Assembly: GCA_030632035.1 (NCBI GenBank)
Contig: DAOVJZ010000001.1
Span: 1 to 24,680, forward strand
Source of the DNA: Granulosicoccaceae bacterium
GTDB taxonomy: Bacteria > Pseudomonadota > Gammaproteobacteria > DAOVJZ01
DNA length: 24,680 bases
Direction of reading: 5' to 3'
Positions 3,989 through 11,344 of this stretch are shown here, piece by piece. Under the pieces are notes generated by a model. It had not been told where the DNA came from, did no database searches, and saw only the letters and a list, made by a program, of their open reading frames with translations. The translations under genes and the position numbers were made by a program. How positions within the stretch are numbered: the first letter of the stretch is position 1; every line of letters begins with the position of its first letter.

Positions 3989-5731
3989 ATGTCCACTCAA
4001 ACTGAATCTGGTCTCAAAGTCTATCGACGATTATTGAGCTATTCAATGTCATATTGGCATCTGTTTCTTGTTGCAGTGCTTGGTATGATTGTGATGGCGG
4101 CGACAGAGCCGGCTTTTGCGGCATTGTTTCAGCCAATGGTGGATGGCAGTTTTGTCAAAAAAGATCCAGATGTAATTAAAACCATGCCGTTGTTGATTCT
4201 TGGTATTTTTGTATTGCGTGGTGTAGCCAGCTTTATATCTAATTATTATATGAATTGGATAAGTCGACAAATTATAAAGCAATTAAGAACCAGTATTTTT
4301 GAACACCTGTTGTACCTGCCTTCCAGTTTTTATGATCGAGCTTCATCTGGTCGAATTTTATCGCGCATGAGTTTTGATGTTGAGCAGGTATCTAATGCGG
4401 CAACAACATCACTGACAGTACTTATTCGTGACACATTGACAATCATTGGGTTGCTGGCATGGATGTTTTATCTAAGTAGCTTGTTAGCACTTATTTTTCT
4501 TCTTGTTGGGCCTGTTATTGCCTTGTTGATTACTTATGTGAGCAAGCGTTTCCGCCGGATCAGCTCCAGAATCCAGCATTCGATAGGGGGGGTTACCCAG
4601 GTTACGCAGGAAACTGTCAATAATTATAAGGTAGTCAAGATATTTGGTGGTCAGAAATATGAAAAGAAACAATTTGATAATGTTAATGAGTACAACCGCA
4701 AACAATATATGAAGCTGGTTGTTACTAATGCGATTAGTAGTCCAGTGGTGCAAACTATAGGTGCCTGTGGTTTATCGATCATTATTTATCTTTCCACAAT
4801 GGAAAATATGCTGGCAACATTTACACCAGGCACATTCATCTCTTTTGTAATGGCGATGGTGATGTTAATGCCGCCTATCAAGCGCCTCACATCAATTAAC
4901 TCAGCTATCCAGCAGGGGATTGCAGCAGGTCAAAGTATTTTTGGTTTTCTGGATGAAAAGCAGGAACGGGATACTGGAACGCAGGAAATTGATATTGCCA
5001 AAGGGGATATTGAATACCGTGGTGTGTCTTTCACTTATGCAACAGGTCATAACAAGGCACTGGATAATATCAGTCTTAATATTGAGTCTGGCAAGACAGT
5101 TGCCTTTGTCGGTCAGTCTGGTAGCGGCAAGACGACGCTGGTTAATTTATTACCAAGACTTTATTCTGATTATGAAGGTGTAATTATGCTGGATGGTCAT
5201 GATATCCATGACTTGAAATTAGCCTCCTTGCGCAGACAAATTTCATTAGTGAGTCAGGATGTCACACTATTTAATGATACGGTCGCCAATAATATTGCCT
5301 ATGGTTTTGAGGAACCAGACAGGGAAGCAATCACCAATGCAGCACGAGCGGCCCATGCGCTGGAGTTTATTGAAAAAATGCCGGATGGGTTGGATACGAT
5401 GGTGGGTGAAGATGGCCTGTTATTATCAGGAGGACAACGCCAGCGTATTGCAATTGCCCGTGCGATTTTAAAAAATGCACCGATTTTGATTCTGGACGAA
5501 GCCACTTCTGCGTTGGACACAGAGTCAGAGCGTCATATTCAGTCTGCACTGGATGAGTTAATAAAAAACAGAACCACATTGGTGATCGCACATCGTCTTT
5601 CAACAATTGAAAAGGCCGATAAGATTGTTGTTATGCATGATGGCAAGATTGTTGAGACAGGCACTCATGACGAACTACTTGGTCAACAAGGTTACTACAC
5701 CAACCTCTACAATATGCAATTCAAGGATTGA
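3989..5731 (+). CDS. msbA: Lipid A/LPS flippase ABC transporter MsbA
   Basis: 580 aa TMD+NBD; Walker A GQSGSGKTT, signature LSGGQRQR, Walker B ILDEATSALD, AHRLST; directly upstream of lpxK. Confidence 0.96.
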   Translation: MSTQTESGLKVYRRLLSYSMSYWHLFLVAVLGMIVMAATEPAFAALFQPMVDGSFVKKDPDVIKTMPLLILGIFVLRGVASFISNYYMNWISRQIIKQLRTSIFEHLLYLPSSFYDRASSGRILSRMSFDVEQVSNAATTSLTVLIRDTLTIIGLLAWMFYLSSLLALIFLLVGPVIALLITYVSKRFRRISSRIQHSIGGVTQVTQETVNNYKVVKIFGGQKYEKKQFDNVNEYNRKQYMKLVVTNAISSPVVQTIGACGLSIIIYLSTMENMLATFTPGTFISFVMAMVMLMPPIKRLTSINSAIQQGIAAGQSIFGFLDEKQERDTGTQEIDIAKGDIEYRGVSFTYATGHNKALDNISLNIESGKTVAFVGQSGSGKTTLVNLLPRLYSDYEGVIMLDGHDIHDLKLASLRRQISLVSQDVTLFNDTVANNIAYGFEEPDREAITNAARAAHALEFIEKMPDGLDTMVGEDGLLLSGGQRQRIAIARAILKNAPILILDEATSALDTESERHIQSALDELIKNRTTLVIAHRLSTIEKADKIVVMHDGKIVETGTHDELLGQQGYYTNLYNMQFKD

Positions 5732-6717
5732 ACTATTTCATGTTCCGCCCGGATAAATACTGGTATAACAACTCGCTATATATAAGGGCATTGCTTCCAT
5801 TATCGTGGTTATTTTGTAGCGTGGTGAAATTACGCAGGCTGGCTTATCAATACGGCATCAAAAAGACACACTATCTGGATGTACCTGTGATTATAGTAGG
5901 CAATATTACGGTGGGTGGTACGGGTAAAACACCAACCGTTATCTGGTTAGTGAATTTTCTGAAAGGTGAAGGTTATAGTCCGGGGATTGTTTCCCGTGGT
6001 TATGGCGGAAAGGCAACACACTGGCCGCAACAGGTTCGTCCAGACAGTGATCCGGTTATTGTTGGTGATGAAGCTATTTTGTTAGCGCATCAGAGCAAGT
6101 GTCCAGTGGCGGTTGGCCCTAAAAGAGTGGAGGCCGCCAGAGCATTGCTGGAATATGAAAACTGCGACATTATTATTTCAGATGATGGTCTTCAGCATTA
6201 TTCGCTGGGTCGTGATATTGAAATTGCATTGGTTGATAGCATACGTCGTTTTGGTAATGGCCATTGTTTGCCAGCAGGTCCTTTACGTGAACCGGAAGAA
6301 CGTATGGAGGAAGTCGATATTATTGTTGCCAACGGTGTGCCTGGCCCACACGAATTTGGTATGCGCCTTGCGGGAATACGATTGGTTAATGTCAGTGATT
6401 ACACACAGCAAATGAACCTTGAGGATTTACGTGGGCAAACTGTCCATGCTGTTGCGGGTATTGGTTATCCAGAGCGGTTTTTTAACCATCTGAACCGTGC
6501 CGGCCTTGATGTGATTGAACATCCTTTTCAGGATCATCATGTCTTCAAACCGGAAGATCTGGATTTTGGCGATGACCTGCCAGTGATCATGACTGAAAAA
6601 GACATCGTAAAATGTCACCGTTTTACCCAGTCTAACCACTGGTACTTGCCTGTAAAGGCCGACCCTGATCCCAGATTGGGTGAACGCATTATGGGGTTGT
6701 TAAAGCAGGTTTCCTGA
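5728..6717 (+). CDS. lpxK: Tetraacyldisaccharide 4'-kinase
   Basis: VGNITVGGTGKTP, SRGYGG, GDE, DDGLQH, GPLRE, TEKD motifs. TTG start overlaps the msbA stop; ATG at 5740 is an alternative start. Confidence 0.96.
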   Translation: MNYFMFRPDKYWYNNSLYIRALLPLSWLFCSVVKLRRLAYQYGIKKTHYLDVPVIIVGNITVGGTGKTPTVIWLVNFLKGEGYSPGIVSRGYGGKATHWPQQVRPDSDPVIVGDEAILLAHQSKCPVAVGPKRVEAARALLEYENCDIIISDDGLQHYSLGRDIEIALVDSIRRFGNGHCLPAGPLREPEERMEEVDIIVANGVPGPHEFGMRLAGIRLVNVSDYTQQMNLEDLRGQTVHAVAGIGYPERFFNHLNRAGLDVIEHPFQDHHVFKPEDLDFGDDLPVIMTEKDIVKCHRFTQSNHWYLPVKADPDPRLGERIMGLLKQVS

Positions 6718-6747
6718 CATCGTTTTTTAGCTCCTGATGCGTGAATA

Positions 6748-6756
6748 TGATAGAAT
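6748..6756 (+). promoter_or_regulatory. Putative extended -10 promoter (TGaTAGAAT) for ycaR-kdsB-ptpA
   Basis: TGATAGAAT in the 76-bp lpxK-ycaR gap, 38 nt before the ycaR ATG; motif match only. Confidence 0.45.
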
Positions 6757-6793
6757 TCGCGTACTCAAACCTTAAATCACAGCGTAAAACCCC

Positions 6794-6973
6794 ATGGATA
6801 ATAAATTACTCGATATTCTGGTATGTCCTGTTTGCAAAGGCCCACTTGTTTATAAAAAAGAACAGGGTGAATTGATTTGCAAGGGCGACAGGCTTGCCTA
6901 CCCGATAAAAGATGACATCCCCGTCATGCTGGAACAGGAAGCAAGAGAACTGCCCGCTGAAGAGGAAGTTTAA
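6794..6973 (+). CDS. ycaR: Trm112-like/UPF0434 protein YcaR, 59 aa
   Basis: Manual translation [59 protein letters not shown]; LLDILVCP and YPIxDxIPVML motifs; lies between lpxK and kdsB; TAATG overlap with kdsB. One residue below the apparent ORF-track cutoff. Confidence 0.95.
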
Positions 6974-7734
6974 TGACCTTTCGTGTCGTGATCCCTGCGC
7001 GTCATGCTTCGACGCGTTTACCTGGTAAGCCTCTGCTTGAGATTGCGGGTAAGCCCATGATTCAGCATGTTTACGAACGTGCGCTTGATTGCGGTGCAGA
7101 TAGCGTTGTGATCGCAACCGATGATGAACGTATCCAGAAGGTTGCAGAATCATTTGGTGCAGATGTGTGCATGACATCACCCGATCACCCATCAGGTACA
7201 GAACGTTTAGCCGAAGTCGTGAGCAAGTTGTCATACGATAAAGATGACATTGTTGTTAACGTACAGGGAGATGAACCATTGATGCCAGCAAGTCTGGTTG
7301 AACAGGTTGCAGAATTGCTGGCGCAAAGCAATAGTGCTGATGTTGCAACCTTGTGTACGCCCATTCTTGATGGGAATGATATTTTTAATCCCAATGTTGT
7401 GAAGGTAGTAACAGATAAAGAAGGTAATGCGCTTTATTTTAGTCGTGCACCGGTTCCGTGGCATCGTGATGCCTTTGCTGAAGAAAAAGATATTGTGCTG
7501 GATGACAGCGTCTACTTTAGACATATCGGGTTATATGCTTATCGTGTTTCATTTCTTAAAGATTACACCTCTTTAACACCTTCACCACTGGAAATAATTG
7601 AATCACTCGAACAATTACGGGTGTTGTGGCATGGACGCAAGATTGCAGTGGCCAATGCGTATGACATACCAGGCCCCGGTGTTGACACTATCGAAGATCT
7701 GAAAAAGGTCGAAATGATTTTGTCTGATAATTAA
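6973..7734 (+). CDS. kdsB: 3-deoxy-manno-octulosonate cytidylyltransferase (CMP-Kdo synthetase)
   Basis: IPARHASTRLPGKPL, SGTERL, NVQGDEP, YFSRAPVP, RHIGLYAYR, ESLEQLR, GVDT motifs. Confidence 0.97.
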   Translation: MTFRVVIPARHASTRLPGKPLLEIAGKPMIQHVYERALDCGADSVVIATDDERIQKVAESFGADVCMTSPDHPSGTERLAEVVSKLSYDKDDIVVNVQGDEPLMPASLVEQVAELLAQSNSADVATLCTPILDGNDIFNPNVVKVVTDKEGNALYFSRAPVPWHRDAFAEEKDIVLDDSVYFRHIGLYAYRVSFLKDYTSLTPSPLEIIESLEQLRVLWHGRKIAVANAYDIPGPGVDTIEDLKKVEMILSDN

Positions 7735-7747
7735 TTGTGGAGCTAAT

Positions 7748-8218
7748 ATGATCAAGGTACTTTTTGTCTGCATGGGCAATATTTGCAGATCACCAACAGC
7801 AGAAGGTGTATTTACCCATTTGGTTCAGCAATCGGGGCTGGCAGATCAGATACAGATCGATTCTGCTGGTACTCATGCCTATCATGTCGGGCATGAACCC
7901 GACACCAGATCGCAAAAGACGGCCAAAGACAGGGGAATAGACATAAGCCATTTACGAGCCCGCTGTGTTTCTGATGGTGATTTTTATGAATTTGATTATG
8001 TACTGGCGATGGATCGGGACAATTACCAGATCCTGCAGGGGGTTTGTCCATTGGGTGAGGAACATCGGCTCAAACTGTTTCTGGAATACGCGCCTGATAT
8101 ACCAGAGGATGAGGTGCCTGATCCTTATTATGGTGGTCCAAACGGGTTTGAGCGCGTAATGGATATGATCGCGATTGCCTCAGAAGGGCTACTTGCAGAA
8201 ATTCGTACCAAACCCTGA
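7748..8218 (+). CDS. ptpA: Low-molecular-weight protein-tyrosine phosphatase
   Basis: P-loop VCMGNICRSP (CX5R), DSAGT, DPYYGG general-acid motif; usual neighbour of kdsB. Confidence 0.93.
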   Translation: MIKVLFVCMGNICRSPTAEGVFTHLVQQSGLADQIQIDSAGTHAYHVGHEPDTRSQKTAKDRGIDISHLRARCVSDGDFYEFDYVLAMDRDNYQILQGVCPLGEEHRLKLFLEYAPDIPEDEVPDPYYGGPNGFERVMDMIAIASEGLLAEIRTKP

Positions 8219-8238
8219 TGGCTTGTCTTTGGTAGCAT

Positions 8239-8273
8239 AAAAAAAACGACGTAGCTAAATGGCTACGCCGTTT
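8239..8273 (-). terminator. Intrinsic terminator oriented for a minus-strand transcript
   Basis: Minus strand reads AAACGGCGUAGC-CAUUUA-GCUACGUCGUUU (12 bp with one G.U) ending in an 8-U run (plus-strand A8 at 8239-8246). On the plus strand the same stem has an A.C mismatch and only 3 T. Confidence 0.75.
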
Positions 8274-8311
8274 AACTAACCACCATTTGGGAGGGGGTGG
8301 TTGGGGATAGT
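8239..8311 (-). ncRNA. Candidate ~73-nt trans-acting sRNA with a C-rich anti-SD loop
   Basis: Promoter TTGACA(8347-8342)-17 bp-TAAGCT(8324-8319); hairpin AACCACC/GGUGGUU with loop CCCUCCCAAAU; terminator with U8; no AUG-initiated ORF of note. TSS at 8311 is inferred. Confidence 0.6.
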
Positions 8312-8318
8312 AAAGATG

Positions 8319-8347
8319 AGCTTAATATAACCTAGTGTTTTTGTCAA
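8319..8347 (-). promoter_or_regulatory. sigma70-type promoter TTGACA-N17-TAAGCT
   Basis: Consensus -35, exact 17-bp spacer, -10 with the conserved T-A---T. It points into the intergenic hairpins rather than at a CDS. Confidence 0.65.
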
Positions 8348-8402: not shown

Positions 8403-8430
8403 AGAGCCTAGGCTCTATTCCATGTATAAT
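8403..8430 (+). promoter_or_regulatory. Putative gnnA promoter: TATAAT at 8425-8430 with a perfect 14-bp palindrome (8403-8416) over the -35 position
   Basis: AGAGCCTAGGCTCT is its own reverse complement; consensus -10 lies 42 nt before the ATG; no recognisable -35. Confidence 0.4.
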
Positions 8431-8472
8431 CGCATCTTTGTTGTGATAACAGATAAAAGCAGGACATCCTGA

Positions 8473-9447
8473 ATGAATAAATTACGGGCCGGAGTCATAG
8501 GCGTAGGTTATCTGGGAAATTTTCATGCCCAGAAATATGCAGAACTGGAAGATATTGAATTGGTAGGTGTGGCCGATGCCAGTATGGAACGTGCCGAAGA
8601 GATTGCTAAAGAACTCTCAACCGAAGCATTTCAGGATTACAGTGAATTGATTTCACTGGTTGATTTGGTTTCTATTGTTGTTCCCACTGATTTACACCAT
8701 AGCATTGCACGCGAGTGTCTGAATTCTGATGTACATGTCCTGCTCGAAAAACCAATCACGGTAACGGTTGAAGAGGCAGAAGAACTCATCAAATTAGCGA
8801 ATGAACGTAAAAGAGTATTTCAGGTAGGCCATCTGGAAAGGTTTAATCCAGCCATCATGGCACTGGATGGTAAACTGAATAATCCGATGTATGTTGAATC
8901 TCATCGTTTGGCACCATTCAAGATTCGTGGAACCGATGTGAATGTGATTATGGATCTGATGATTCATGATATAGATATCATTTTGAATCTCGTGCAAAGT
9001 GAAATAAAGTCAGTCAGTGCTGTGGGTGTGCCGGTATTATCTGCTGATGTAGATATTGCCAATGCGCGTCTTGAGTTTGCTAATGGTTGTGTGGCTAATG
9101 TAACGGCCAGTCGTGTTAGTCGTGAAGGTATGCGCAAGCTTAGAGTGTTTCAGCCTGATGCCTATTTTTCTATTGATTACAATGATCGCGAAATCACGAT
9201 GGCAAACAAGAAAAGTGATGAACTGGATGAGCAGGGCGTTCCCGTTATTTCGGTTGAAAAAGAAACCTTTGAACAAGCCGATGCATTGATGAGTGAAATC
9301 AAGGCATTTATTGACTCCATCAGAACTGGTAAGCCTCCAGTTGTAAGCGGTGAAGATGGCAAACGCGCACTTGAAATAGCGCTTACCATTAACAAAGATA
9401 TCAAAATTACAAACGATGCCTCACAACTGATGGCAACATCCCAATAA
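8473..9447 (+). CDS. gnnA: Gfo/Idh/MocA oxidoreductase, probable UDP-GlcNAc 3-dehydrogenase (GnnA-like)
   Basis: GVIGVGYLGNFHAQKY Rossmann start, LLEKP, QVGHLERFNP, DLMIHDID; adjacent to a DegT aminotransferase and LpxA. Family is certain; the specific activity is inferred. Confidence 0.75.
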   Translation: MNKLRAGVIGVGYLGNFHAQKYAELEDIELVGVADASMERAEEIAKELSTEAFQDYSELISLVDLVSIVVPTDLHHSIARECLNSDVHVLLEKPITVTVEEAEELIKLANERKRVFQVGHLERFNPAIMALDGKLNNPMYVESHRLAPFKIRGTDVNVIMDLMIHDIDIILNLVQSEIKSVSAVGVPVLSADVDIANARLEFANGCVANVTASRVSREGMRKLRVFQPDAYFSIDYNDREITMANKKSDELDEQGVPVISVEKETFEQADALMSEIKAFIDSIRTGKPPVVSGEDGKRALEIALTINKDIKITNDASQLMATSQ

Positions 9448-9463
9448 TTGAAGGAAGTTTTAC

Positions 9464-10567
9464 GTGTCTAAGTTAAATATCCCAATGGTTGACCTGAAAG
9501 GGCAATATCAATCACTCAAAAAAGAAATAGATAATGGTATTCAGGATGTATTGAATGCTACCAGTTTCATTCTTGGTCCTAATGTACAGGCACTGGAAAA
9601 AGAAGTAGCTGATTATTGCGGTGTCAAACATGCGATTGGTGTTGCATCGGGTACGGATGCCTTGCATCTGGCATTACTTGCCGCTGATATTGGCCCCGGT
9701 GATGAAGTGATTACTTCACCCTTTACCTTTATTGCCACGGCAGAGGCCATTGCCTATGTTGGTGCGAAACCTGTCTTTGTTGATATCAATCCAGATACAT
9801 TCAATATTGATCCTGCCCTGATCGAAGCAGCGATTACCGATAAAACCAAAGCAGTAATGCCAGTACATATGTTTGGACAATCCGTTGATATGGATCCGAT
9901 TGCGGCTATTTGCAAGAAGCATAAACTCAAAATTGTTGAGGATTGTGCGCAATCATTCGGTGCCGAGTATGGCGGTAAAAAATCCGGTGCCTATGGTGAT
10001 CTGGGTTGTTTTTCTTTCTTCCCCAGCAAAAATCTGGGAGCCTTTGGTGATGGCGGTATGGTTATTACCAATGACGATGCCATGGCAGACAATGTGCGTA
10101 TGTACCGTAACCACGGTAGCAAGGTGCGTTATTATCATTCATGCATTGGTTACAATAGTCGTCTGGACGAAATGCAGGCAGTAATTTTAAGAGTAAAACT
10201 GAAACGCATTGATGAATTCAACAGTAATCGTTACAACAATGCACAGGCCTATACAAACAAGCTAAAAGATTCTGGTATTACCGCGCCGTTTGAAGATGGG
10301 AAAGGAACCCATGTTTATCATCAATACACCATAATGCATGACAAGCGTGATGCAATTCATCAGGCATTAACAGAGCGTGGCATTGCTTCAGCGATTTATT
10401 ATCCTGTGCCTTTGCATAGACAGGAAGTATTTGCTGAAGATTACAAGAATATCAGCCTGCCAAATGCAGAAGCAGTATCTGAACGGGTTGTTTCCTTGCC
10501 TATGTTTCCTGAACTGACTCAGGAACAGATACAGCAAATAATGGAAACAGTGCTTTCTGCTATTTAG
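9464..10567 (+). CDS. gnnB: DegT/DnrJ/EryC1/StrS PLP aminotransferase, probable UDP-3-keto-GlcNAc aminotransferase (GnnB-like)
   Basis: SGTDALHLAL, EDCAQ (PLP Asp), FSFFPSKNLGAFGDGG (Schiff-base Lys), GYNSRLDEMQA; GTG start. Confidence 0.75.
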   Translation: MSKLNIPMVDLKGQYQSLKKEIDNGIQDVLNATSFILGPNVQALEKEVADYCGVKHAIGVASGTDALHLALLAADIGPGDEVITSPFTFIATAEAIAYVGAKPVFVDINPDTFNIDPALIEAAITDKTKAVMPVHMFGQSVDMDPIAAICKKHKLKIVEDCAQSFGAEYGGKKSGAYGDLGCFSFFPSKNLGAFGDGGMVITNDDAMADNVRMYRNHGSKVRYYHSCIGYNSRLDEMQAVILRVKLKRIDEFNSNRYNNAQAYTNKLKDSGITAPFEDGKGTHVYHQYTIMHDKRDAIHQALTERGIASAIYYPVPLHRQEVFAEDYKNISLPNAEAVSERVVSLPMFPELTQEQIQQIMETVLSAI

Positions 10568-10570
10568 TAC

Positions 10571-11344
10571 ATGTCTGACATCCATCCTACCGCAATAATT
10601 TCTTCCGAGGCCAGTATTGGCAAGGATGTTTCCATTGCACCCTATGTTATTGTTGAAGGAAATGTTTCGATTGGCAATGGTTGCAGGATTGGTTCGCACA
10701 GTGTCGTAAAAGAATTTACCCGCCTGGGAAATAACAACACCGTACATGAGCATGTGGTACTTGGCGGTACCCCGCAGGATTTCAAATTTTCCCAGTGTGA
10801 AAGTTTTCTGGAGATTGGGGAGGGCAATGTCTTTCGGGAAGCAGTGACCGTACACCGTTCTAATACAGCCGGAAAGAAAACAGTGATTGGCAATAATAAT
10901 TATTTGATGGCCAATTCGCATGTGGCACATGATTGTATTTTGGGTGACAACATTATTATGGCCAATGGTGTGCTATTGGGTGGCCATGTCACAATTGAAG
11001 ATCGTGCATTTTTATCCGGAGCAGTTACTGTGCATCAATTTTGCCGGATCGGCACCATGGCGATGTTGGGTGCCAGTGCACGTATCAATCAGGATTGTTT
11101 ACCCTATATGATTATTGATGGTGCACCAGGTCGTGTGCGCGGACTTAACCTGATAGGGTTGAAGCGAGCTGGTTTTTCAAGAGATGAGATTAGCAGTTTG
11201 AAACAGGCAATGAAAACATTGTTTGGTTCGGGGGAGCTTGATGAAAAACTGGTTGAGATAAAAAAAGTGCCTTCTGAGCAGGTACGGCATCTGGCTGGTT
11301 TTATAGAAACTTCTGAGCGAGGGTTTGCTCACAAAAGTCGTTAG
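10571..11344 (+). CDS. lpxA: Acyl-ACP--UDP-N-acetylglucosamine acyltransferase (LpxA family)
   Basis: 257 aa; hexapeptide repeats from IHPTAII; PQDFKF, SHVAHDC (catalytic His), GGHV, VHQF and the C-terminal GLNLIGLKRAGF helical domain diagnostic of LpxA. Confidence 0.9.
   Translation: MSDIHPTAIISSEASIGKDVSIAPYVIVEGNVSIGNGCRIGSHSVVKEFTRLGNNNTVHEHVVLGGTPQDFKFSQCESFLEIGEGNVFREAVTVHRSNTAGKKTVIGNNNYLMANSHVAHDCILGDNIIMANGVLLGGHVTIEDRAFLSGAVTVHQFCRIGTMAMLGASARINQDCLPYMIIDGAPGRVRGLNLIGLKRAGFSRDEISSLKQAMKTLFGSGELDEKLVEIKKVPSEQVRHLAGFIETSERGFAHKSR

What the first reader, a model, noticed from the sequence alone, without database searches (positions are those of the whole stretch)
8473..11344. Stand-alone gnnA-gnnB-lpxA cassette predicting a 2,3-diamino-2,3-dideoxyglucose lipid A
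Seen: a Gfo/Idh/MocA dehydrogenase, a DegT aminotransferase and a full LpxA are tightly linked (16- and 3-bp gaps), have their own -10 box, and sit right after msbA-lpxK-kdsB. Known: GnnA/GnnB convert UDP-GlcNAc to UDP-GlcNAc3N, which LpxA N-acylates, giving amide-linked lipid A (Acidithiobacillus ferrooxidans; also Leptospira, Mesorhizobium, Campylobacter). lpxA usually sits in lpxD-fabZ-lpxA-lpxB, and none of those neighbours is here. Inference: either lpxA was relocated, or this is a second, amine-selective LpxA that lets the cell make or switch between ester- and amide-linked lipid A, a more hydrolysis-resistant outer membrane.
Basis: partly seen in the sequence, partly recalled or inferred. 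Interest (0 to 1): 0.65.

Follow-up and report, generated by a model that had tools for sequence, protein, structure and literature searches.

The report
Second LpxA with GnnA/GnnB cassette
An uncultured sediment gammaproteobacterium keeps its normal lipid A gene cluster and also carries a conserved three-gene module (GnnA, GnnB and a divergent second LpxA) that should add amide-linked, amino-sugar units to its lipid A; the chemistry is already known, so this is a solid but modest new example.

Summary
Window 8473-11344 encodes three genes with 16- and 3-bp gaps, directly after msbA-lpxK-kdsB-ptp:
- a GnnA orthologue (best solved relative is GnnA, 7bvj);
- a DegT aminotransferase (GnnB-like);
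- a full LpxA with all catalytic residues.

The gene was not relocated. The genome also has a native lpxD-fabZ-lpxA-lpxB cluster on contig C179, so the window gene is a second LpxA, 41% identical to the first. A third cluster, on C180, belongs to another organism in the bin.

The whole arrangement recurs at 82-93% protein identity in a same-genus genome and in sediment metagenome contigs. It is under strong purifying selection.

In a sample of 300 genomes of the class:
- 115 have GnnA;
- 35 have two LpxAs, and every one of those has GnnA.

The extra LpxAs form their own, never fabZ-linked branch. Their nearest solved relative is the amine-selective Leptospira LpxA.

Most likely the module makes UDP-GlcNAc3N and N-acylates it, giving mixed or hybrid GlcN/GlcN3N lipid A. 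Amine selectivity is inferred, not shown.

Two lpxA genes together with gnnA/gnnB were already noted in Capnocytophaga canimorsus. This scan has also reported similar cassettes on other DNA. Verdict: a new member of a known kind.

The parts
8473..9447 (+). gnnA: UDP-GlcNAc 3-dehydrogenase orthologue (324 aa)
   Evidence: Pfam GFO_IDH_MocA N- and C-terminal domains. The best PDB match is 7bvj (GnnA), E 7e-70 and 239 bits over residues 3-307, with the Rossmann GxGxxG, EKP and DLMIHD blocks aligned; the next hit scores 100 bits. 89% identical to the gene in G001 and L196, with dN/dS about 0.05.
9464..10567 (+). gnnB: DegT-family sugar-nucleotide 3-aminotransferase (367 aa, GTG start)
   Evidence: Pfam DegT_DnrJ_EryC1 at 450 bits, full length. 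PDB matches: 7b0d at 403 bits, WbpE at 344, QdtB at 333. It follows gnnA directly in most of the 40 class loci examined, at 45-66% identity. dN/dS about 0.03.
10571..11344 (+). lpxA3: second, divergent LpxA (257 aa), predicted UDP-GlcNAc3N N-acyltransferase
   Evidence: TIGR01852 at 297 bits, above the cut-off. 41% identical to the native LpxA on C179. Q69, D70, H117, H120, G138, H139, H155, Q156, N193 and R199 are all conserved. The best PDB match is L. interrogans LpxA, 3hsq, at 212 bits. It sits in the branch of non-fabZ-linked LpxAs, and the AU test rejects placing it in the canonical clade. dN/dS about 0.06.
8425..8430 (+). Conserved TATAAT (-10-like) box upstream of gnnA
   Evidence: Read. 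Invariant, within TTCCATGTATAAT, in the window, L196 and L198. No -35 partner was found, and the scan gave no more sites than chance.
8461..8464 (+). AGGA ribosome-binding site, 8 nt before the gnnA ATG
   Evidence: Sequence read.
3989..8218 (+). Upstream co-oriented lipid A / Kdo genes: msbA, lpxK, kdsB and the low-molecular-weight phosphatase
   Evidence: The same order followed by gnnA-gnnB-lpxA3 is found in G001:C73 and in metagenome contigs L196 and L198.

Best explanation
The three genes form an accessory branch of lipid A synthesis. The proposed steps are:
1. GnnA oxidises the 3-OH of UDP-GlcNAc using NAD.
2. GnnB transaminates the 3-keto sugar to UDP-GlcNAc3N.
3. The second LpxA (LpxA3) transfers an R-3-hydroxyacyl chain from ACP to the new 3-amine.

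The single-copy LpxC, LpxD, LpxH, LpxB and LpxK then process this intermediate together with the ester-linked one made by the native, canonical LpxA. The outer membrane should therefore contain GlcN3N-containing lipid A (all-amide, mixed or hybrid) alongside, or instead of, GlcN lipid A.

The ruler position differs between the two LpxAs: Ala168 in LpxA3 against Met in the native enzyme. The amide-linked chain is therefore probably longer than the ester-linked one.

What is shown:
- gene identities and orthology of GnnA;
- presence of two native LpxAs and single copies of the downstream genes;
- conservation and purifying selection;
- the phyletic link between a second LpxA and GnnA.

What is inferred:
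- the substrates of GnnB and LpxA3;
- the acyl chain length;
- the composition of the final lipid A.
For: GnnA orthology.

The gnnA-gnnB pair sits next to lpxB or lpxA in most of 40 loci from the class.

LpxA3 passes the LpxA equivalog cut-offs and keeps every catalytic and UDP-GlcNAc-contact residue checked except the E200 and R205 equivalents.

Native canonical cluster on C179:
- C179 matches G001:C147 at 78-88% nt.
- C180 matches the same syntenic locus at only 64-73% nt, so C180 is a foreign contig.

Single-copy downstream genes: LpxC and LpxH are single-copy in G000 and G001, and LpxD is single-copy in G001.

The cassette is syntenic at 82-93% aa identity in G001 and in contigs L193-L198, with dN/dS 0.03-0.06.

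Class survey:
- 115 of 300 genomes are GnnA-positive.
- 34 other genomes have two or more LpxAs, and all 34 are GnnA-positive.
- It is 30 of 30 if the four unpublished genomes G040, G117, G262 and G272 are left out.

Trees:
- The second copies form one non-fabZ-linked group (SH-aLRT 93 with 130 rows; 85/92 with 53 rows).
- This group is apart from the canonical clade that holds E. coli and C179.
- AU test p = 0.005.

Similarity to solved structures:
- LpxA3 is nearest to the UDP-GlcNAc3N-using L. interrogans LpxA: 212 bits, against 193 for E. coli (enzyme property from PMC4624066).
- C179 LpxA scores 309 (P. aeruginosa), 300 (E. coli) and 192 (Leptospira).
- LiLpxA shares the branch-specific V63, F147, M165, V/I195 and A200 states (alignment compared).
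Against: No enzyme was assayed, and no lipid A chemistry exists for this uncultured genus.

Canonical-type LpxAs with the same signature residues are the only LpxA in many GnnA-positive genomes, for example G139, G291 and G147. The canonical type can therefore evidently cope with the amine sugar, and the extra copy is not strictly required for GlcN3N lipid A.

The preference for the Leptospira enzyme is only 19 bits.

LiLpxA and A. ferrooxidans LpxA could not be placed in the tree.

GnnB is about as close to WbpE-type enzymes as 3-aminotransferases generally are.

The MAG is 78% complete with 4% contamination.
Confidence: 0.65

Rival explanations
1. Both LpxAs use UDP-GlcNAc3N, or both use either sugar. 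The second copy exists to install a different acyl chain length, giving asymmetric or heterogeneous acylation rather than a sugar-specific branch.
For: The hydrocarbon-ruler position (E. coli G173, P. aeruginosa M169) differs between the two groups:
- Met in C179 and in 21 of 37 canonical rows.
- Gly or Ala in 30 of 31 second-copy rows (Ala168 in LpxA3).

Canonical-type LpxA is the sole copy in many GnnA-positive genomes.

Two LpxA homologues have been linked in the literature to acyl heterogeneity in Segatella copri and Psychrobacter (PMC12643348, PMC4557000).
Against: This rival does not explain why every sampled genome with two LpxAs has GnnA. It also does not explain why the extra copy is so often adjacent to gnnA/gnnB. 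The two ideas are not exclusive.
Confidence: 0.2
2. GnnA/GnnB-like enzymes supply a 3-amino sugar for an O-antigen or other surface glycan, as WbpB/WbpE do, and the neighbouring LpxA is unrelated to them.
For: GnnB scores 344 bits to WbpE. A low-molecular-weight phosphotyrosine phosphatase, often associated with polysaccharide synthesis, lies just upstream.
Against: GnnA matches GnnA 7bvj, and no WbpB/WlbA chain appears at E<=1e-10. The cassette has no UDP-GlcNAc 6-dehydrogenase, N-acetyltransferase or epimerase. The pair is embedded in lipid A clusters throughout the class.
Confidence: 0.05
3. The window gene is the organism's only lpxA, moved out of its usual cluster.
For: No lpxD, fabZ or lpxB lies in the window.
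Against: A native lpxD-fabZ-lpxA-lpxB cluster is present on C179 and in G001:C147. G001 is 99% complete and also carries the cassette.
Confidence: 0.01
4. LpxA3 is a redundant duplicate that is drifting or decaying.
For: It is the least conserved of the three genes (84% identity, against 89% and 92%). One metagenome contig, L195, shows it in two frames.
Against: dN/dS is about 0.06 and all catalytic residues are intact. It is 41% identical to the native copy and belongs to an old, widespread branch.
Confidence: 0.03

Closest known systems
GnnA/GnnB/LpxA of Acidithiobacillus ferrooxidans (Sweet, Ribeiro and Raetz 2004, J Biol Chem 279:25400; GnnA structure 7bvj/7bvk)
   Same: The same three enzyme types and the same predicted chemistry: UDP-GlcNAc to the 3-keto sugar, then to UDP-GlcNAc3N, then to the N-acylated product. 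GnnA is a clear orthologue. The genes are linked to lipid A genes.
   Different: Here the cassette has its own extra LpxA, while a canonical lpxD-fabZ-lpxA-lpxB cluster is kept elsewhere. The gene order is gnnA-gnnB-lpxA, appended to msbA-lpxK-kdsB-ptp. The gene order in A. ferrooxidans is known to me only from memory and from an earlier scan note; I did not verify it.
Leptospira interrogans LpxA (PDB 3hsq, 3i3a, 3i3x), which uses UDP-GlcNAc3N (PMC4624066, citing Robins et al. 2009)
   Same: It is the nearest solved structure to LpxA3 (212 bits). It shares the branch-specific residues V63, F147, M165, V/I195 and A200, and a basic residue at position 171.
   Different: The margin over E. coli LpxA is only 19 bits. 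The published selectivity determinants could not be read, because that paper is not held. Leptospira has a single LpxA.
Capnocytophaga canimorsus lpxA + lpxA' + gnnA/gnnB with a hybrid GlcN3N-GlcN lipid A (PMC3342949)
   Same: Two lpxA genes together with gnnA and gnnB in one genome, interpreted there as the basis of a hybrid backbone and of differing 3 and 3' acylation.
   Different: It is in a different phylum. There, lpxA and lpxA' sit in one operon with lpxC and lpxD, and the gnn genes are dispersed. Here the second lpxA is fused to gnnA-gnnB. In neither case has the second enzyme been assayed.
Two LpxA homologues in Segatella copri and other Bacteroidetes, and in Psychrobacter cryohalolentis (PMC12643348, PMC4557000)
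   Same: Divergent LpxA pairs (about 45% identity) that keep their catalytic residues, proposed to diversify lipid A.
   Different: In those cases the pairs were linked to acyl-chain heterogeneity, and the passages I searched do not mention gnnA/gnnB or GlcN3N.
WbpB/WbpE (UDP-GlcNAcA 3-dehydrogenase and aminotransferase of O-antigen synthesis)
   Same: The same two folds and the same 3-oxidation followed by transamination. WbpE scores 344 bits to GnnB.
   Different: No WbpB/WlbA chain matches GnnA at E<=1e-10. The cassette has no 6-dehydrogenase, acetyltransferase or epimerase partner, and its neighbours are lipid A genes.

Membership tests
GnnA (UDP-GlcNAc 3-dehydrogenase, Gfo/Idh/MocA) | Gfo/Idh/MocA two-domain fold with the N-terminal NAD-binding Rossmann motif | tested here: met
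   PF01408 at 1.3e-33, plus PF02894 and PF22725. GVIGVGYLG aligns to GnnA 7bvj.
GnnA (UDP-GlcNAc 3-dehydrogenase, Gfo/Idh/MocA) | Closer to characterised GnnA than to any other characterised dehydrogenase | tested here: met
   7bvj scores 239 bits over residues 3-307. The next PDB hit scores 100 bits, and no WbpB/WlbA chain appears at E<=1e-10. 7bvj is identified as GnnA in bioRxiv 10.1101/2024.11.05.622173.
GnnA (UDP-GlcNAc 3-dehydrogenase, Gfo/Idh/MocA) | NAD-dependent oxidation of UDP-GlcNAc at C3 | not testable with these tools
   Needs an enzyme assay.
GnnB (UDP-3-keto-GlcNAc aminotransferase, DegT family) | Full-length DegT/DnrJ/EryC1 PLP-dependent fold | tested here: met
   PF01041 at 450 bits, covering residues 18-363 of 367.
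GnnB (UDP-3-keto-GlcNAc aminotransferase, DegT family) | Conserved pairing with gnnA inside lipid A gene clusters | tested here: met
   gnnA and gnnB are adjacent in most of 40 class loci, usually followed by lpxB or lpxA. The same holds in G001, L193, L196 and L198.
GnnB (UDP-3-keto-GlcNAc aminotransferase, DegT family) | Sequence distinct from O-antigen 3-aminotransferases such as WbpE and QdtB | tested here: inconclusive
   The best chain, 7b0d (403 bits), has no function I could find. WbpE at 344 and QdtB at 333 follow closely.
LpxA (acyl-ACP:UDP-GlcNAc acyltransferase, TIGR01852) | Score above the curated equivalog cut-off, with a left-handed beta-helix plus the LpxA C-terminal helical domain | tested here: met
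   TIGR01852 at 297 bits (cut-off 231), NF003657 at 318 bits (cut-off 226), hexapeptide repeats and PF13720.
LpxA (acyl-ACP:UDP-GlcNAc acyltransferase, TIGR01852) | Catalytic His (E. coli H125) and the sugar and diphosphate contacts Q73, D74, H122, H144, H160, Q161, N198 and R204 | tested here: met
   All are conserved as Q69, D70, H117, H120, H139, H155, Q156, N193 and R199. The residue roles are taken from PMC7072397.
LpxA (acyl-ACP:UDP-GlcNAc acyltransferase, TIGR01852) | Placement in the lpxD-fabZ-lpxA-lpxB cluster (typical, not obligatory) | tested here: not met
   None of these neighbours is in the window. The native cluster is on C179.
Amine-selective LpxA (L. interrogans type) | Preference for UDP-GlcNAc3N over UDP-GlcNAc | not testable with these tools
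   The support is only indirect: the nearest PDB chain is 3hsq, branch-specific residues are shared, the gene is linked to gnnA/gnnB, and the phyletic pattern fits.
Amine-selective LpxA (L. interrogans type) | Same clade as the characterised enzyme in a phylogeny | not tested
   The LiLpxA sequence is available only as a printed alignment and could not be entered in the tree.
WbpB/WbpE pathway (UDP-ManNAc3NAcA) | A WbpB-type dehydrogenase, with partner genes wbpA, wbpD and wbpI nearby | tested here: not met
   There is no WbpB/WlbA match, and no such neighbours in the window.

The most novel reading that the evidence does not exclude
The non-fabZ-linked LpxAs form an old, unnamed paralogue branch. 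In the sample it occurs only in GnnA-positive genomes and spans several phyla. Its members would be dedicated UDP-GlcNAc3N N-acyltransferases with a longer-chain ruler. Carrying one alongside a canonical LpxA would then be a genomic marker for hybrid or mixed GlcN/GlcN3N lipid A. In this genus the branch gene has been fused with gnnA-gnnB onto the msbA-lpxK-kdsB operon, so the amide-linked form could be dosed separately from the ester-linked one.
Probability: 0.4. Interest if true: 0.5.

Novelty: new member of a known kind. Interest (0 to 1): 0.3.

Why it matters
Lipid A with amide-linked chains resists hydrolysis better, and in Campylobacter and Capnocytophaga it alters recognition by innate immunity and antimicrobial peptides. 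How bacteria produce hybrid GlcN3N-GlcN backbones is still argued from gene lists rather than from enzymology.

This locus gives a clean, conserved pair for testing: one canonical LpxA and one gnn-linked LpxA, with every downstream enzyme single-copy. That setup can show whether the split happens at the LpxA step.

The class-wide pattern, in which every sampled genome with two LpxAs also has GnnA, offers a simple genomic predictor of lipid A type in uncultured bacteria. For this organism itself the result is ordinary cell-envelope biology.

Tried and rejected
- Relocated single lpxA: rejected. There is a native cluster on C179 and in G001.
- Three native lpxA genes: rejected. C180 is the same syntenic locus as G001:C147 but only 64-73% nt identical, against 78-88% for C179. 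Its LpxB is closest (60%) to a different family. It is therefore bin contamination.
- A partner LpxD for the new branch: G000 has an extra LpxD on C111, but G001 (99% complete) and G055, G152 and G247 each have only one LpxD. Only part of C111 matches G001. I do not count it as part of the system.
- Own promoter or terminator: only the conserved TATAAT stands out. The scans gave no more than chance, and there is no terminator-like fold after lpxA3 (z = -0.28).
- Cis-regulatory RNA before gnnA: only a sub-threshold ylbH hit (19.8 bits against 50), taken as chance.
- Signature residues as a read-out of sugar choice: rejected as decisive, because canonical LpxAs of single-LpxA, GnnA-positive genomes carry the same residues as those of GnnA-negative genomes.
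- Compositional sign of recent transfer: none. GC is 0.43 across the cassette, against 0.437 for the genome.
- AU test on the 130-row tree did not finish in three runs. I repeated it on 53 rows.
- Papers by Sweet et al. 2004, Robins et al. 2009 and Williams and Raetz 2007 are not held, so published selectivity determinants and the A. ferrooxidans gene order could not be checked.
- The function of PDB 7b0d could not be traced.
Full report
**What is in the sequence**

The window is contig C37 of a metagenome-assembled genome: 1.66 Mb, 258 contigs, 77.8% complete, 3.9% contamination and 43.7% GC.

- ORF 1 (8473-9447) is a Gfo/Idh/MocA dehydrogenase.
- ORF 2 (9464-10567) is a full-length DegT aminotransferase.
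- ORF 3 (10571-11344) passes both curated LpxA equivalog cut-offs and has the LpxA-specific C-terminal domain.

Upstream, on the same strand, lie comEC, exbB, exbD, msbA, lpxK, kdsB and a low-molecular-weight phosphotyrosine phosphatase. Downstream, a secretin-like gene converges on the cassette.

A perfect TATAAT at 8425-8430 is invariant in three diverged versions of the 254-bp spacer. It has no -35 partner, and the promoter scan gave no more sites than chance. No terminator-like fold follows lpxA3.

**Identity of the two sugar enzymes**

GnnA. The best solved relative of ORF 1 is 7bvj at 239 bits, aligned end to end with the NAD motif, EKP and DLMIHD blocks conserved. The next chain scores 100 bits, and no WbpB/WlbA chain appears at E<=1e-10. 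7bvj is the UDP-GlcNAc 3-dehydrogenase GnnA (bioRxiv 10.1101/2024.11.05.622173). From memory, it is the A. ferrooxidans enzyme.

GnnB. ORF 2 is nearest to 7b0d (403 bits), whose function I could not trace, then to WbpE (344 bits) and QdtB (333 bits). Sequence alone therefore does not separate GnnB from O-antigen 3-aminotransferases. The assignment comes from context: in most of 40 loci taken from the class, gnnA is followed directly by this aminotransferase and then by lpxB or lpxA.

**Relocated or second lpxA?**

The genome holds three LpxA genes above the family cut-off: C179, C180 and the window. C179 and C180 both carry lpxD-fabZ-lpxA-lpxB.

The same-genus genome G001 (99% complete) has one such cluster, on C147.
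- C179 matches it at 78-88% nt and 81-93% aa.
- C180 matches the same syntenic stretch at only 64-73% nt, and its LpxB is closest to that of another family.

C180 is therefore a contig of a second organism in the bin. The genus natively has two LpxAs: the canonical one and the window's, which are 41% identical.

G001 also carries comEC-exbBD-msbA-lpxK-kdsB-ptp-gnnA-gnnB-lpxA3, but its contig ends inside lpxA3. Metagenome contigs L193-L198 complete the picture, with the same order at 82-93% aa identity and the same convergent secretin-like gene.

Pairwise dN/dS is 0.05 for gnnA, 0.03 for gnnB and 0.06 for lpxA3, like the flanking essential genes. dS is saturated, so these ratios are approximate.

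LpxC and LpxH are single-copy in G000 and G001, and LpxD is single-copy in G001. Only the first step of the pathway is duplicated.

**What kind of LpxA is it?**

All catalytic and substrate-contact residues I checked are kept: Q69, D70, H117, H120, G138, H139, H155, Q156, N193 and R199. The equivalents of E. coli E200 and R205 are Ile and Ala (residue roles from PMC7072397).

| Query | L. interrogans (3hsq) | E. coli | P. aeruginosa |
|---|---|---|---|
| LpxA3 | 212 bits | 193 bits | 172 bits |
| Native C179 LpxA | 192 bits | 300 bits | 309 bits |

The L. interrogans LpxA uses UDP-GlcNAc3N (PMC4624066).

Trees:
- In a 130-row tree, LpxA3 falls in a group of 31 LpxAs (SH-aLRT 93), none of which is next to fabZ. 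The group is apart from the canonical gammaproteobacterial clade (98, starred), which holds C179, C180, G001 and the canonical copies of the other two-LpxA genomes.
- A more careful 53-row tree without unpublished genomes gives the same split: 85/92 for the second-copy group and 94/86 for the canonical group including E. coli. The sister of LpxA3 is a Thiobacillaceae MAG gene (57% identity, support 96/95).
- Forcing LpxA3 into the canonical clade costs 105 log-likelihood units, AU p = 0.005. The group was named after seeing the tree.

Columns that separate the two groups include the equivalents of E. coli S67, I152, M156, M170, G173, E200 and R205. The printed alignment to LiLpxA shows that enzyme sharing V63, F147, M165, V195 and A200 with the second-copy group.

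At the hydrocarbon-ruler position the canonical copies, including C179, mostly have Met, as in P. aeruginosa M169. The second copies have Gly or Ala, as in E. coli G173. From established knowledge of LpxA rulers, which I recall rather than re-read, this predicts a longer chain for LpxA3.

**How common is this?**

I sampled 300 genomes of the class, drawn evenly and at least 90% complete.
- 115 have a GnnA-like gene at E<=1e-45.
- 35, including G000, have two or more LpxAs at E<=1e-45.
- All 34 others with two LpxAs are GnnA-positive, against 80 of the remaining 265.

Four of the 34 (G040, G117, G262, G272) are unpublished genomes; without them the count is 30 of 30. These genomes come from about 26 families, but relatives are not independent, so I give no p-value.

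Gene arrangements seen:
- The commonest is lpxD-fabZ-lpxA converging on lpxB-gnnB-gnnA.
- The exact order gnnA-gnnB-lpxA' recurs in G055.
- lpxA'-gnnA-gnnB occurs in G152 and G247.
- lpxA-gnnA-lpxA'-lpxB occurs in G220, and also in the unpublished G040.
- In about ten genomes the second copy is unlinked.

The canonical LpxA of C179 groups with E. coli, Xanthomonadales, Lysobacterales and Arenicellales. The class is therefore Gammaproteobacteria in the broad sense.

**Interpretation**

The most economical reading is a GlcN3N branch. GnnA and GnnB make UDP-GlcNAc3N, LpxA3 N-acylates it, and the shared LpxC, LpxD, LpxH, LpxB and LpxK carry both ester- and amide-type intermediates forward. That would give mixed or hybrid lipid A.

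The main caveat is that canonical-type LpxAs, with the same signature residues as those of GnnA-negative genomes, are the only LpxA in many GnnA-positive genomes. The canonical type can apparently use the amine sugar too. The extra copy may therefore add strict amine selectivity, a different chain length, or both. Nothing here shows regulated switching.

**Comparison with what is known**

The pathway itself is textbook (Sweet et al. 2004, cited in PMC5644692 and PMC3342949).

Two lpxA genes together with gnnA/gnnB and a hybrid GlcN3N-GlcN backbone were described for Capnocytophaga canimorsus, without enzymology (PMC3342949). Unexplained LpxA pairs are also noted in Segatella copri, other Bacteroidetes and Psychrobacter.

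This scan has already reported second, divergent LpxAs and lpxA-gnnA-gnnB cassettes on other genomes.

What is specific here is the gene order, the fusion to the msbA-lpxK-kdsB operon, and the clean one-step duplication. The finding is a new member of a known kind.

**Limits**
- The key primary papers are not held.
- The reference amine-selective enzymes could not be added to the trees.
- The organism's name and habitat are not given by the tools. The close metagenome contigs carry Ga02244xx-Ga02245xx identifiers. One contig of that series has the same length (23,963 bases) and match identity as a record whose title names an isolate labelled '4_1_July_SF'.

Noticed in passing
G000 contig C180 (L173:1-5127): A second lpxD-fabZ-lpxA-lpxB locus, with the same flanking synteny as G001:C147 but only 64-73% nt identical. 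It is most likely a contig from another gammaproteobacterium binned into this MAG. Its LpxB is 60% identical to that of G032.
   Followed up: yes
G000 contig C111 (L174:224-1300, minus strand): An extra LpxD (293 bits, above the cut-off), followed by threonine-dehydrogenase-like and kbl-like ORFs. This half of the contig has no DNA match in G001, which has a single LpxD. The other half matches G001:C169 at 75% nt. Whether it is a strain-specific gene or foreign DNA is not settled.
   Followed up: partly
G000 contig C179 (L175:3465-3734): A stretch of about 270 bp just after lpxB matches at least eight places on six contigs of G001 at 72-94% identity, on both strands. It looks like a dispersed repeat or miniature mobile element.
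   Followed up: no
Loci L133-L172 (class sample): The commonest layout is lpxD-fabZ-lpxA converging on lpxB-gnnB-gnnA. In these loci the gnn-linked LpxB is only 28-42% identical to the LpxB of C179/C180, and where I checked (G026) it is the only LpxB found. LpxB may have co-diverged with the amine sugar.
   Followed up: partly
L195:35-804: In one metagenome contig the lpxA3 orthologue aligns in two pieces in different frames (35-298 and 295-804). This is either a frameshift or an assembly error.
   Followed up: no
window 8237-8347: The ptp-gnnA spacer holds a strongly conserved block with a hairpin and T-run on the minus strand (8244-8273) and a G-rich GGGAGGGGGTGG stretch. It coincides with the antisense small-RNA gene reported earlier for this window. 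On the plus strand only a sub-threshold ylbH-leader hit was found (19.8 bits against 50).
   Followed up: partly
window 6718-6972: A 255-bp gap between lpxK and kdsB, which is also present in G001 and L196. On the minus strand, ORF 6806-7234 (142 aa) overlaps this gap and the start of kdsB. I did not examine it.
   Followed up: no
L015, L016, L020, L021 (sponge-associated gammaproteobacterial MAGs, by their record titles): A tight clade of stand-alone, non-fabZ-linked LpxAs lying directly after two large ORFs (about 1146 and 865 aa), with an ABC exporter a few kb downstream. No gnnA or gnnB lies within 8 kb.
   Followed up: no
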